A stretch of DNA of 64,000 nucleotides from Schmidtea polychroa (lineage: Eukaryota), in NCBI GenBank assembly GCA_044892525.1, contig CM097885.1, positions 3,598,001-3,662,000 on the forward strand, written 5' to 3'. The notes below the pieces were generated by a model. It was not told the DNA's origin. It ran no database searches and saw only the letters and a program-made list of their open reading frames with translations. Made by a program: the position numbers and the translations under genes. How positions within the stretch are numbered: the stretch's first letter is position 1; the number at the start of each line of letters is the position of its first letter. Positions 1,516-2,904 of the stretch are shown here, in pieces.

Positions 1516-2904
1516 TTACTCCGTTCTACCCTTCTCCTCTTTCCTCACGGTCATCTTGATATATATGGTATCATTTCTCGCCATATCTTCTACTCTTTGT
1601 TGTGAGATGAACGTAGGTGCTCCTGTTGCTGATCCTTCTTCGTTGAGGGGCCTCTGGTAAGCTATTTGATTCCCCGTTGTTTTGAAGCTTTGCTCATGTA
1701 TACTTCGGTTGTTCATCAGAGTAATATCGATTTTTGCCTGGAACGGCCATTCTAATATTTCGTCGTATTCTCCTTTACATAACAGAAAGAAAATCGAAAA
1801 GTGCGTATCTAATCCGGTTCCGTCCCCGTTGGGATATATCTTCATTTTCATTTTGTACCCATTTTTCCAAGAATGGAATGTAGGACTTGTTATTCTTGTC
1901 TCTTCTCCGGTTTTTGCTTTTCGTATTCTTTCTTTTACTCCCGTTATTTTCCATATGTAGGGTGCTGTTGGGGTTATCTCATTTAGATTTATTTCCCGTA
2001 TTTTCTGATGTAGCTCCTTGGCCTGATTATTACTAATTTCTGTTCGGTTTATTTGCATCTTTATGTTTGCTCGGGCTTCTTCGAACGCATCCCTTTCTTC
2101 TAGTAGTTCTTTGACTAACACTTTCAACGATGTTATCTCTATCTCCATTTGTTTTACTTTCTCTTCGCTTTCTTGTAACGCAGTCGACCACATTTCTGCG
2201 TGAGTTGAAGCATTTTCTACTAAATGATGTGGTAACTCACCTCGGTGTAGTAATTTCTGACAACCCCATCTACCTAGTACACATGTCATTCTTTTCTTTT
2301 CGCATTCCCTTAGATGCTGTGCCACCTTCATTATTTCCCCTTGGTTACATCCGTTTGGGCATTCCCCACTGAACTCCGCACATACTCTCTCCTCTTGGAC
2401 ATTGTGATGTTTGAGGGTGAGATTTATCCACGTATCTATTTCTCCACAGTGTTCACATCTTTCCAATCTCTCTTCACACTGCCTTTGATGCTCTTTTTCT
2501 TCGCTTGCTCGAATGGTTTTATGGCACCTTTCACACTGGCCAATTCGGTACATACATTCTCCCATATGTTGTACTACCTTCCATATTACTCCTTTCCATT
2601 CGCATGGGGCATTTTTGCATCCCAGGTTGGTGTTTAACACGTCTTTCACTGCGGCTTTATCCTCGTTAGTGTCTTCTAAACTCGATATTAGTGTCTCTTT
2701 ACACACCGGGCACTTCTGTGGTCTATTCTTTATTGCTTCACTGATACATTCTTTACATACTCTGCATCCACATTGCGTTTGGTGAGGTTCCTTTAACAAC
2801 TTTTCACATATTCCGCACATAACATGTTTGTGTATTCTGATCGTTGTAGATTTTCGGACTTGCTCGACAATCTCTCTGAACTCTTCTCTTTGTCGTTTAT
2901 CCAT
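1516..2904 (-). CDS. TRAF-family protein (RING, TRAF zinc fingers, coiled coil, MATH), intronless, 462 aa
   Basis: RING CGICEKLLKEPHQTQCGCRVCKEC...CPVC; zinc fingers CKNAPCEW..HMGEC and CPNGC..HLREC; MATH signature YIWKITG..SPTF..GYKMKMKIYPNGDGTG..THFSIFFLLCKGEYDEILEWPF. Confidence 0.93.
   Translation of the reverse strand: MDKRQREEFREIVEQVRKSTTIRIHKHVMCGICEKLLKEPHQTQCGCRVCKECISEAIKNRPQKCPVCKETLISSLEDTNEDKAAVKDVLNTNLGCKNAPCEWKGVIWKVVQHMGECMYRIGQCERCHKTIRASEEKEHQRQCEERLERCEHCGEIDTWINLTLKHHNVQEERVCAEFSGECPNGCNQGEIMKVAQHLRECEKKRMTCVLGRWGCQKLLHRGELPHHLVENASTHAEMWSTALQESEEKVKQMEIEITSLKVLVKELLEERDAFEEARANIKMQINRTEISNNQAKELHQKIREINLNEITPTAPYIWKITGVKERIRKAKTGEETRITSPTFHSWKNGYKMKMKIYPNGDGTGLDTHFSIFFLLCKGEYDEILEWPFQAKIDITLMNNRSIHEQSFKTTGNQIAYQRPLNEEGSATGAPTFISQQRVEDMARNDTIYIKMTVRKEEKGRTE

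What the first reader, a model, noticed from the sequence alone, without database searches (positions are those of the whole stretch)
1516..2904. Complete intronless TRAF gene apparently carried by the retroelement
Seen: intact RING-ZnF-coiled coil-MATH with no introns, on the element strand ~600 bp from the polyprotein stop, whereas the host gene in this window is intron-rich. The RING has CGC where TRAFs normally have CGH. Known: TRAFs are adaptors and E3 ligases of TNFR/TLR signalling, and TRAF-like genes are reported to be expanded in planarians. Inference: a captured host mRNA used as a decoy or modulator; element amplification could inflate TRAF copy counts.
Basis: partly seen in the sequence, partly recalled or inferred. 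Interest (0 to 1): 0.85.

Follow-up and report, generated by a model that had tools for sequence, protein, structure and literature searches.

The report
TRAF gene carried by giant retroelement
A complete TRAF signalling gene sits inside a 30-kb virus-like retroelement of a planarian genome and has been kept intact by selection as the element multiplied, which fits what is already published about these "Burro" giant elements.

Summary
Window 1516-2904 (- strand) is an uninterrupted 462-codon TRAF: RING, TRAF zinc fingers, a 75-residue helix and a MATH/TRAF-C domain. It lies inside a 29,848-bp LTR element. The LTRs are 3,859 bp with 1 mismatch; the 3' LTR lies left of the window. The genome holds at least 92 full-length copies at 95-100% protein identity. 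All 10 copies checked share 1.5-kb flanks, and 40 of 40 pol fragments have a TRAF at about the expected distance.

Among 22 copies pN/pS is 0.156, against 1.15-1.20 in shifted frames. A second element family, about 30% identical, has the same order: ORF119-like, TRAF, ORF351-like. The two element TRAFs form one clade apart from host TRAFs. This points to an old, selected accessory gene, not a recent capture.

The "CGC" RING is shared by host planarian TRAFs, and some host TRAFs also lack introns.

Published work on Burro elements already notes MATH_TRAF_C motifs, including one as an accessory ORF (PMC6431247). The finding is therefore real but largely known. Expression and biochemical role remain untested.

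The parts
20596..24454 (-). 5' LTR of the element (3,859 bp). Its partner, the 3' LTR, lies outside the window at window-relative -5393..-1535.
   Evidence: blastn of the window plus 20 kb of upstream genome against itself gives 3,859 bp at 99.974% identity; 1 mismatch, termini TGTTGGG...CCCAACA, and TTAT on both outer flanks. Each LTR holds a 262-aa ORF.
19767..20252 (-). Upstream accessory ORF of 161 aa with a C-terminal RING (zf-C3HC4_3).
   Evidence: PF13920 at 3.4e-11, residues 111-153. Homologues lie in the two other element families.
18600..19191 (.). 74-bp tandem repeat array in the leader, between the 5' LTR and gag.
   Evidence: family D1, spacing 74.
7582..17364 (-). Polyprotein ORF of 3,260 aa: gag, CCHC knuckles, an in-frame class III-type viral fusion glycoprotein, protease, RT, RNase H and the integrase zinc domain.
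   Evidence: Retrotrans_gag, zf-CCHC, PF24664 at 5.5e-71, RVP, RVT_1, RT_RNaseH, Integrase_H2C2. No MATH domain was found in it at E<=0.01 over the whole ORF, nor at E<=1 in residues 401-2000, the gag-to-env stretch.
3510..7652 (-). Integrase core plus an ankyrin-repeat ORF of 1,380 aa. In this copy it is in a different frame from the upstream polyprotein.
   Evidence: rve at 5.6e-13, Ank_2 at 5.1e-18; this copy is 1 nt longer over 7350-7900 than the 39 other listed copies. 11 of 11 other copies read in one stop-free frame over 3,550 nt.
2990..3349 (-). Accessory ORF of 119 aa, no known family.
   Evidence: no Pfam hit; a homologue (32% identity over 91 aa) holds the same position before the TRAF in the 487-type element family.
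1516..2904 (-). The TRAF ORF (462 aa): RING 30-68, zinc fingers about 96-230, helix 232-306, MATH 316-454.
   Evidence: Copy number. Selection.
267..1322 (-). Accessory ORF of 351 aa, coiled-coil-like, no known family.
   Evidence: a homologue (33% identity over 246 aa) lies downstream of the TRAF in the 487-type family.
1..152 (-). Start of a further accessory ORF of 250 aa that runs off the left end of the window (to -600). It is followed by a 222-aa ORF (-641..-1309) and then the 3' LTR.
   Evidence: ORF map of the whole element; no Pfam hit over its cut-off.

Best explanation
The ORF is an accessory gene of a Burro-type giant Ty3/gypsy-like LTR retroelement, an endogenous retrovirus-like element of a planarian. 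It is one of five small ORFs packed between pol and the 3' LTR.

It encodes a full-length TRAF-type protein. The parts are a RING with all eight zinc ligands, TRAF zinc fingers, a long helix suited to coiled-coil trimerisation, and a MATH/TRAF-C domain that binds peptides.

The gene entered the element lineage long ago. Purifying selection has maintained it while the element replicated. It now exists in at least 92 near-identical copies.

Most likely mode of action (inferred, not shown): the protein is made from an element transcript in cells where the element is active. It trimerises, docks through MATH on host receptor or adaptor motifs (or on host TRAFs), and uses its RING to build ubiquitin chains. 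This would bend TNFR/TLR-like, NF-kB/JNK or cell-death signalling in the element's favour. That makes it an active modulator, not an inert decoy.
For: Shown.
- Inside the element. The LTR pair is 3,859 bp at 99.974% identity, at window -5393..-1535 and 20596..24454. Termini are TG..CA and TTAT flanks both ends.
- Constant part of the family. 10 of 10 TRAF loci align to the element over all 4,386 bp, including 1.5-kb flanks, at 98.8-100%. 40 of 40 scored pol-junction hits have a TRAF hit nearby; 37 lie within 15 nt of the expected distance and 3 differ by indels of 186-2,225 bp (compared by hand).
- Copy number. 92 of 92 scored matches are full-length at 95-100% identity and 91 of 92 have no stop, out of 1,985 first-look candidates.
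- Selection. In 22 copies (94.7-100% nt identity) 0 of 22 have internal stops. Pooled pN/pS is 0.156. In 184 pairs with dS>0.03 the median dN/dS is 0.142 (range 0.060-0.237). Shifted-frame controls give 1.20 and 1.15. Variable sites by codon position are 37/30/98. By domain: RING+zf 0.123, helix 0.186, MATH 0.183.
- Conserved gene order. The 487-type family has ORF119-like, then TRAF, then ORF351-like, at 30-33% identity.
- Clade. The window TRAF, the 487-type TRAF and four unnamed public proteins form one clade (support 99/96), apart from host planarian TRAFs.
- Zinc ligands are invariant across element and host TRAFs.

From literature.
- Burro elements are reported to carry MATH_TRAF_C, RING, ankyrin and apoptosis-related motifs and an in-frame env (PMC6431247, section 7, passages read).
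- BURRO1 RNA is detected in intestine and rises on smedwi-2 RNAi (PMC8532177, passages read).
- A DNA virus encodes a TRAF, ISKNV ORF111L (PMC3352826, listing only).
Against: - No RNA evidence for this ORF. No listed run is on record as RNA, and only contigs could be laid. The route of expression (spliced subgenomic RNA, internal promoter or reinitiation) is unknown.
- No biochemical or binding data.
- The 22 copies were drawn from a list ranked by protein score, which favours low dN. I judge, by inference, that the bias is too small to produce a ratio of 0.15 at dS up to 0.216.
- The clade joins rows whose amino-acid make-up departs from the rest, so compositional attraction is possible.
- The MATH-only tree leaves the in-frame MATH of the 4,791-aa-ORF family unplaced. 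A single origin for all element MATH domains is therefore not shown.
- This particular copy has its pol split into two frames, so it may not be autonomous itself.
- From memory only: some TRAF2 peptide-contact residues look changed in the alignment.
Confidence: 0.85

Rival explanations
1. Recent transduction of a host TRAF mRNA, in the way retroviral oncogenes are captured. The ORF would be a passenger with no role for the element.
For: The ORF has no introns and sits in the 3' region, where transduced genes often lie.
Against: - No close donor. Identity is 29-30% to the host-like full-length TRAFs tested, and 39% at best in MATH. Nothing above 42% was found among 1.84 billion representatives.
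- pN/pS is 0.156.
- A family about 30% identical has the same gene order.
- Host TRAFs can also lack introns.
- No poly(A) run follows the stop codon.
Confidence: 0.04
2. A RING-dead or dominant-negative decoy. The His-to-Cys change (CGC) would inactivate the E3, and the protein would only soak up host TRAF partners.
For: Ligand 4 of the RING is Cys, not the usual His. Decoy TRAF-like proteins are a plausible viral strategy (inference).
Against: - Cys is itself a zinc ligand.
- The same CGC is in 5 of 5 aligned planarian TRAFs here (four host-like, one from the second element family) and in 8 of 8 public relatives with a RING match.
- All eight ligands are invariant.
- RING+zf is the most constrained part (0.123).
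Confidence: 0.1
3. The TRAF serves the element's own particle cycle and not host signalling. Examples would be ubiquitination of Gag or Env for trafficking or budding, or docking on the element's ubiquitin-like and ankyrin modules.
For: The polyprotein holds ubiquitin-like stretches (my reading of the translation; one weak ubiquitin Pfam hit, E 0.78), an in-frame envelope protein and a second RING ORF. Selection shows only usefulness to the element, not the target.
Against: Nothing direct. MATH domains of the TRAF2/3 type are best known for receptor-tail binding, which is established knowledge but not tested here.
Confidence: 0.25
4. A host TRAF gene that merely lies next to, or was interrupted by, a retroelement.
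For: None after mapping.
Against: The ORF lies between the two LTRs. It has element-like GC of about 0.39. It recurs with identical flanks at dispersed sites.
Confidence: 0.01

Closest known systems
[quoted passage not shown] 2018; as summarised in PMC6431247)
   Same: A giant LTR element of about 30 kb with tandem repeats in the leader, gag with CCHC knuckles, env in frame between gag and pol, ankyrin repeats, RING motifs and a MATH_TRAF_C motif. A genome family with a 4,791-aa open frame fits this description. It is 36-57% identical to the window's polyprotein.
   Different: In that family the MATH domain is an in-frame module after gag, with no RING or TRAF zinc fingers found next to it. 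Here a complete RING-zf-helix-MATH protein is a separate ORF downstream of pol, and no MATH was found in the polyprotein (for the whole ORF; for the gag-to-env stretch). No BIR or BCL2-like motif was found in this element at E<=0.01.
Burro-like element of Dugesia (Girardia) tigrina, with MATH_TRAF_C on an accessory ORF (PMC6431247)
   Same: The MATH/TRAF module is encoded by a separate accessory ORF and not inside the polyprotein.
   Different: That ORF is described as upstream; here it is downstream of pol. I had no sequence of it to compare.
487-aa TRAF ORF of a second element family in the same genome (locus L044)
   Same: Full-length TRAF (zf-TRAF and MATH by Pfam). Same neighbours in the same order. 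Same clade. Many copies: about 80 of the 150 best MATH hits by my hand count.
   Different: Only 28.6% identical. It has an extra RING161-like ORF between the TRAF and the ORF351-like gene.
Viral TRAF of a fish iridovirus (ISKNV ORF111L; PMC3352826, title and abstract start seen in a listing)
   Same: A virus-carried TRAF homologue thought to act on host death or immune signalling. This is a functional analogy.
   Different: That is a DNA virus of a vertebrate with an independent acquisition, and no sequence comparison was made here. From memory, that protein lacks the RING; I did not check this.
Host planarian TRAFs (loci L014-L017, L046 and the contig 2 arrays; Dendrocoelum lacteum TRAF-2 and TRAF-4)
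   Same: Same domain order and the same CGC RING variant.
   Different: 29-31% identity, separate clades, low-GC flanks without element genes, and orthologues at 75-85% identity in public data for two of them.

Membership tests
TRAF family (RING-type TNF receptor-associated factors) | N-terminal RING finger with eight zinc ligands | tested here: met
   zf-C3HC4 at 23.2 bits against a cut-off of 21. C30, C33, C45, C47, C50, C53, C65 and C68 are invariant in alignment A1. Ligand 4 is Cys instead of His, as in the other planarian TRAFs.
TRAF family (RING-type TNF receptor-associated factors) | TRAF-type zinc fingers after the RING | tested here: met
   Pfam zf-TRAF was not listed at E<=0.01 for this protein. 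However, residues 28-154 match the TRAF6 RING-ZF structure 5vo0 at 3e-15. The C/C/H/C ligand sets are invariant. The model shows repeated strand-strand-helix units over 93-230.
TRAF family (RING-type TNF receptor-associated factors) | Coiled-coil (TRAF-N) region | tested here: met
   One helix over 232-306 in the AlphaFold2 model, block pLDDT 60-83. Residues 250-453 align to TRAF3 including its coiled coil (1flk). Trimer formation itself was not tested.
TRAF family (RING-type TNF receptor-associated factors) | C-terminal TRAF-C / MATH domain | tested here: met
   PF21355 at 95.7 bits (cut-off 27.4) and PF22486 at 95.4 bits. TRAF2 TRAF domain at 2.1e-28.
TRAF family (RING-type TNF receptor-associated factors) | E3 ligase activity, trimerisation and receptor-peptide binding | not testable with these tools
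   These need biochemistry.
Burro-type giant Ty3/gypsy-like LTR retroelements | Long terminal repeats with TG..CA ends and a target-site duplication; total length about 30 kb | tested here: met
   29,848 bp in all, LTRs of 3,859 bp with 1 mismatch, TTAT on both flanks.
Burro-type giant Ty3/gypsy-like LTR retroelements | Order gag, env (in frame), PR, RT, RH, IN, with extra modules such as ankyrin and RING | tested here: met
Burro-type giant Ty3/gypsy-like LTR retroelements | Sequence identity to a named Burro reference (Burro-1 to -4) | tested here: inconclusive
   No named reference sequence was at hand. Grohme et al. 2018 is not held. The link rests on 36-57% identity to a 4,791-aa-ORF family that fits the published description of Burro1. 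Which numbered Burro this family is remains open.
Recently transduced host gene (retroviral-oncogene-like capture) | A closely related intron-bearing donor gene in the host | tested here: not met
   Best host-like relatives are 29-30% identical over the full length. Nothing above 42% in the representative library.
Recently transduced host gene (retroviral-oncogene-like capture) | Remnant of a poly(A) tail or host UTR beside the ORF | tested here: inconclusive
   The 193-nt spacer after the stop is AT-rich with AATAAA-like words but has no poly(A) run. After this much divergence such traces would be gone.

The most novel reading that the evidence does not exclude
The element-borne TRAFs are a distinct, old, virus-like TRAF lineage: active E3 adaptors kept with a fixed three-gene set (ORF119, TRAF, ORF351). 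This lineage would be locked in conflict with the host's own TRAF network. The large host TRAF arrays on contig 2 and the reported planarian 'TRAF expansion' would then be, at least in part, the host's side of an arms race with these endogenous retrovirus-like elements. Part of the published TRAF count would itself be element genes.
Probability: 0.15. Interest if true: 0.7.

Novelty: already known. Interest (0 to 1): 0.33.

Why it matters
It shows concretely that a retroelement can keep a complete innate-immunity adaptor and E3 gene under selection over a long time. That makes these elements look like complex retroviruses with host-manipulating accessory genes.

It also carries a practical warning. 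Counts of TRAF or MATH genes in planarian genomes mix host genes with hundreds of element copies. Claims of a TRAF expansion should therefore separate the two.

The general fact that Burro elements carry TRAF/MATH motifs is already in print. The added value here is:
- the evidence for selection;
- the conserved gene order;
- the separate clade;
- the finding that the CGC RING and the lack of introns are not special to the element.

Tried and rejected
- RNA evidence. The look-up of sequencing runs listed no RNA holder. Read laying on window 1200-21199 used only contigs of four runs of unknown kind. All 30 bins were covered. The one recurrent joint (1995 to 3446, 20-nt sides, letters between unknown) looks like a related element variant, not a splice. 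I draw no conclusion on expression.
- The search for homologous proteins gave 1 hit only, P0001 at 35% identity, so it was of little use.
- The MATH-only tree of 35 rows was unresolved, with long branches.
- Protein-atlas look-ups of ORF351 and ORF119 gave low recognition and only unnamed clusters. Nothing was usable.
- Pfam on the ORFs of 250, 222, 262, 351 and 119 aa gave nothing over the cut-offs.
I then fetched 12 ORF-only copies. As a result the selection test on the neighbouring ORFs, and an unbiased copy sample, were not done.
- Grohme et al. 2018 is not held, so I could not assign the family to Burro-2, -3 or -4.
- Literature searches that found no paper linking Burro and TRAF beyond PMC6431247.
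- Earlier-findings look-ups were empty.
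Full report
**What is at the coordinates**

Window 1516..2904 on the - strand is one open frame of 462 codons.
- Pfam finds a RING (zf-C3HC4, residues 30-68, 23.2 bits against a cut-off of 21). It also finds a TRAF/meprin MATH domain (PF21355, residues 336-450, 95.7 bits, 3.5e-27).
- Against solved structures, residues 284-453 match the TRAF domain of TRAF2 (2.1e-28). TRAF1, TRAF3 and TRAF5 follow close behind. Residues 28-154 match the RING plus zinc fingers of TRAF6 (5vo0, 3e-15).
- An AlphaFold2 model was built on a shallow 10-row alignment (mean pLDDT 67). 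It shows the RING, four or five strand-strand-helix zinc-finger units, a single helix over 232-306 and a beta sandwich over 316-454.

So is the detail that the RING reads C-G-C where most TRAFs read C-G-H.

**Where it lies**

Bases 1 to about 24,000 of the window have GC near 0.39, against 0.2-0.3 further right. I fetched 20 kb of the genome to the left of the window and compared the joined stretch with itself.
- One direct repeat of 3,859 bp at 99.974% identity stands out, at window-relative -5393..-1535 and 20596..24454.
- The two copies differ at 1 position. They begin TGTTGGG and end CCCAACA, and TTAT flanks both outer sides.
- A TGG-initiated stretch that looks like a primer-binding site lies 7 nt inside the 5' LTR boundary (not matched to a tRNA).

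The element is thus 29,848 bp, on the - strand, and its 3' LTR lies outside the window.

Read along the element strand, the order is as follows:
1. 5' LTR, which contains a 262-aa ORF.
2. A 161-aa ORF with an IAP-type RING (PF13920, 3.4e-11).
3. A 74-bp tandem repeat array.
4. A 3,260-aa polyprotein: gag, CCHC knuckles, an in-frame viral fusion glycoprotein (PF24664, 5.5e-71), protease, RT, RNase H and the integrase zinc domain.
5. A 1,380-aa frame with the integrase core and ankyrin repeats.
6. Five small ORFs of 119, 462 (the TRAF), 351, 250 and 222 aa, separated by 40-193 nt.
7. The 3' LTR.

The TRAF is inside the element, 606 bp after the stop of the integrase/ankyrin frame.

**Is it a constant part of the element?**

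- Searching the whole assembly (781 Mb) with the protein gave 1,985 first-look candidates. 92 were scored. All 92 are full-length at 95-100% identity and 91 have no stop.
- The ten best loci align to the element over their whole 4,386 bp, flanks included, at 98.8-100%.
- A search with 551 nt of the pol region gave 40 scored hits out of 962 candidates. Comparing coordinates by hand, all 40 have a TRAF hit from then on the same contig. 37 lie within 15 nt of the expected distance. 3 differ by indels of 186 to 2,225 bp.
- Some TRAF hits lie about 26.2 kb apart in pairs. That is the spacing expected for tandem elements sharing an LTR.

**Selection**

I compared 22 copies: the ten loci plus twelve of the more divergent ones, ORF only.

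| Measure | Result |
|---|---|
| Copies with an internal stop | 0 of 22 |
| Nucleotide identity to the window copy | 94.7-100% |
| Pooled pN/pS over 231 pairs (Nei-Gojobori) | 0.156 |
| Median dN/dS in the 184 pairs with dS>0.03 | 0.142 (range 0.060-0.237) |
| Maximum dS / maximum dN | 0.216 / 0.036 |
| Same statistic in the two shifted frames | 1.20 and 1.15 |
| Variable sites by codon position 1/2/3 | 37/30/98 |
| pN/pS for RING+zf, helix, MATH | 0.123, 0.186, 0.183 |

These copies are dispersed insertions, and the LTRs of the window's own copy are nearly identical. The constraint must therefore have acted on the replicating element lineage.

One caveat applies. The copies came from a list ranked by protein score, which favours low dN.

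**Relatives and origin**

A scan of the genome with the MATH profile gave 1,551 candidates, of which 150 were scored. By my hand count they fall into these classes.

| Class | Rows of 150 | Notes |
|---|---|---|
| Host-like | 55 | Mostly exon-sized frames of 180-210 aa in large arrays on contig 2; a few full-length single frames of 454-473 aa (L014-L017, L019) |
| MATH inside a very long open frame (2,405-4,791 aa) | 13 | |
| MATH in a frame mostly 487 aa long | about 80 | |
| This family | 1 | Most of its copies score just below the listed 150 |
| Ambiguous | 1 | L046b; see the next paragraph |

The last two classes and the long-frame class together give the 94 element-type rows. The ambiguous row L046b later grouped with host TRAFs: its tandem partner L046a has an 85%-identical public counterpart, and both sit in a host clade. 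That would make 56 host-like rows.

What blastx of the flanks shows:
- The 487-type locus (L044, GC 0.39) carries an ORF119 homologue (32%), its TRAF (30%), a RING161 homologue and an ORF351 homologue (33%), in that order on one strand.
- The long-frame type carries a RING161 homologue upstream. Its polyprotein is 36% (gag side) to 57% (pol side) identical to the window's. Its MATH domain is in frame after gag.
- Pfam finds no RING or TRAF zinc finger next to that in-frame MATH.
- The host-like loci have GC 0.27-0.35 and no element genes beside them.

Identity and public relatives:
- The window TRAF is 28.6% identical over its full length to the 487-type TRAF, and 29-30% to host-like L014, L015, L016 and L019.
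- Against 1.84 billion representatives there are 6,221 hits at E<=0.001. None is above 42% identity, and the best full-length one is 36%.
- The named ones among ten looked up are TRAF-2 and TRAF-4 of the planarian Dendrocoelum lacteum, and a fish TRAF.
- Two unnamed public proteins are 75% and 85% identical to host-like L016 and L046a. These behave like ordinary host genes with orthologues elsewhere.

In a full-length tree of 29 rows, the window TRAF, the 487-type TRAF and four unnamed public proteins form one clade (support 99/96). It stands apart from the two host planarian clades. The program warns that these rows have an unusual amino-acid make-up, so attraction by composition cannot be excluded. 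The shared gene order is independent support for common descent. The MATH-only tree is unresolved, so whether the in-frame MATH of the long-frame family has the same origin is open.

- "Carried by the retroelement" is right. So is the idea that element copies swell TRAF counts at the genome level.
- "Captured host mRNA" may be true in the distant past, but nothing here shows it. There is no close donor. Lack of introns is not diagnostic, because host TRAFs with one uninterrupted frame exist.
- The CGC RING is not a lesion of the element copy. It is in 5 of 5 aligned planarian TRAFs of this genome (four host-like, one from the second element family). It is also in 8 of 8 public relatives with a recognisable RING, including the Dendrocoelum proteins. 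All eight ligands are invariant.
- Taken with the strong constraint on the RING and zinc-finger part, an active E3 adaptor is more likely than a dead decoy.

**How it probably works**

Shown:
- The gene is a fixed, selected part of the element.
- All the structural parts of a RING-type TRAF are present.

Inferred:
- It is translated from an element transcript.
- It trimerises through the long helix.
- It binds host receptor or adaptor peptides, or host TRAFs, through MATH.
- It ubiquitinates through its RING.
- It thereby shifts TNFR/TLR-like, NF-kB/JNK or cell-death signalling in cells where the element is active.

A role in the element's own particle cycle is a live alternative. The element also encodes ubiquitin-like stretches, a second RING protein and an envelope protein.

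No RNA evidence could be obtained. No run on record as RNA was listed, and only contigs could be laid.

**What is already known**

Arkhipova and Yushenova 2019 (PMC6431247; I read passages of section 7) summarise Jurka 2007 and Grohme et al. 2018. They report that:
- the giant gypsy-like Burro elements of Schmidtea mediterranea exceed 30 kb;
- these elements carry RING (AIR1), Smc, MATH_TRAF_C, BIR, ankyrin and BCL2-like motifs;
- env lies in frame between gag and pol;
- a Burro-like element of Dugesia tigrina encodes MATH_TRAF_C on an accessory ORF;
- these domains may let the element meddle with host apoptosis and ubiquitination.

Other papers:
- Swapna et al. 2018 (PMC6109357, passages read) report the planarian TRAF/MATH expansion (99-121 MATH transcripts or domains). 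In the passages shown they do not relate it to Burro.
- Li et al. 2021 (PMC8532177, passages read) show BURRO1 RNA in intestine and its rise on smedwi-2 RNAi.
- Grohme et al. 2018 is not held, so I could not see its figures or assign this family a Burro number.
- Six searches found no other paper that links Burro and TRAF.
- A virus-encoded TRAF is known from a fish iridovirus (PMC3352826, listing only).

That the genome is Schmidtea mediterranea is my inference. It rests on four large contigs, 781 Mb and elements of this kind. No named sequence confirmed it.

**Verdict**

The feature is real and the observation accurate. The core of the interpretation, an element-borne TRAF, is right. But it restates in one copy something already published for this class of elements.

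New here are:
- the measured purifying selection on all three parts of the protein;
- the conserved ORF119, TRAF, ORF351 order across two families about 30% identical;
- the separate clade of element TRAFs;
- the correction that the CGC RING and the lack of introns are general planarian TRAF traits.

Interest is modest. It would rise if the element TRAFs were shown to act on host TRAF signalling, or to have driven the host TRAF arrays.

Noticed in passing
window 7350-7900 (frames overlap at 7582-7652): In this copy the integrase core and ankyrin part is in a different frame from gag-RT-RNase H. The stretch is 551 nt here and 550 nt in the 39 other listed copies. 11 of 11 other copies read in one stop-free frame over 3,550 nt. 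The break is therefore private to this copy.
   Followed up: yes
window 19767-20252 (-): A 161-aa ORF between the 5' LTR and gag has an IAP-type C-terminal RING (PF13920, 3.4e-11). Homologues sit upstream of gag in the long-frame family, and between the TRAF and the ORF351-like gene in the 487-type family. Accessory ORFs thus change place between families.
   Followed up: partly
window 21130-21918 (-), and the same ORF in the 3' LTR left of the window: Each LTR holds a 262-aa ORF with a hydrophobic N-terminus that looks like a signal peptide. It has no Pfam family.
   Followed up: no
window 7582-17364 (-), polyprotein residues about 650-1250: Three stretches of the polyprotein look ubiquitin-like by eye. 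Pfam gives only one weak ubiquitin hit (E 0.78). The literature mentions a Ubi2/SUMO-like motif in Burro1.
   Followed up: no
window 8700-11800 (-), polyprotein residues 1868-2207 and upstream: A viral fusion glycoprotein of the Monjiviricetes type lies in frame between gag and protease (PF24664, 5.5e-71). This matches the published in-frame env of Burro elements.
   Followed up: partly
G000 contig 2, about 3-5 Mb and 110-124 Mb (loci L020, L022-L024, L026-L043): Large arrays of host TRAF genes. Each shows a RING/zf frame of about 200-220 aa and a MATH frame of about 180-208 aa. These are probably the host side of the reported planarian TRAF expansion.
   Followed up: partly
G000 contig 4, 28,395,500-28,401,500 (L046): Two host-like TRAF ORFs (487 and 476 aa) lie in tandem on one strand in low-GC sequence. 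One has an 85%-identical public counterpart, P0018.
   Followed up: partly
G000 contig 2 at 177,699,304 and 177,725,516; contig 4 at 46,256,274 and 46,282,455, and at 69,865,757 and 69,892,041: Pairs of TRAF copies lie about 26.2 kb apart on the same strand. This suggests tandem elements sharing an LTR.
   Followed up: no
window 28500-58300 (+): Scattered short frames with ankyrin-type and other coding-like sequence, separated by long AT-rich low-complexity runs. This is probably a many-exon host gene. No gene model was built.
   Followed up: no
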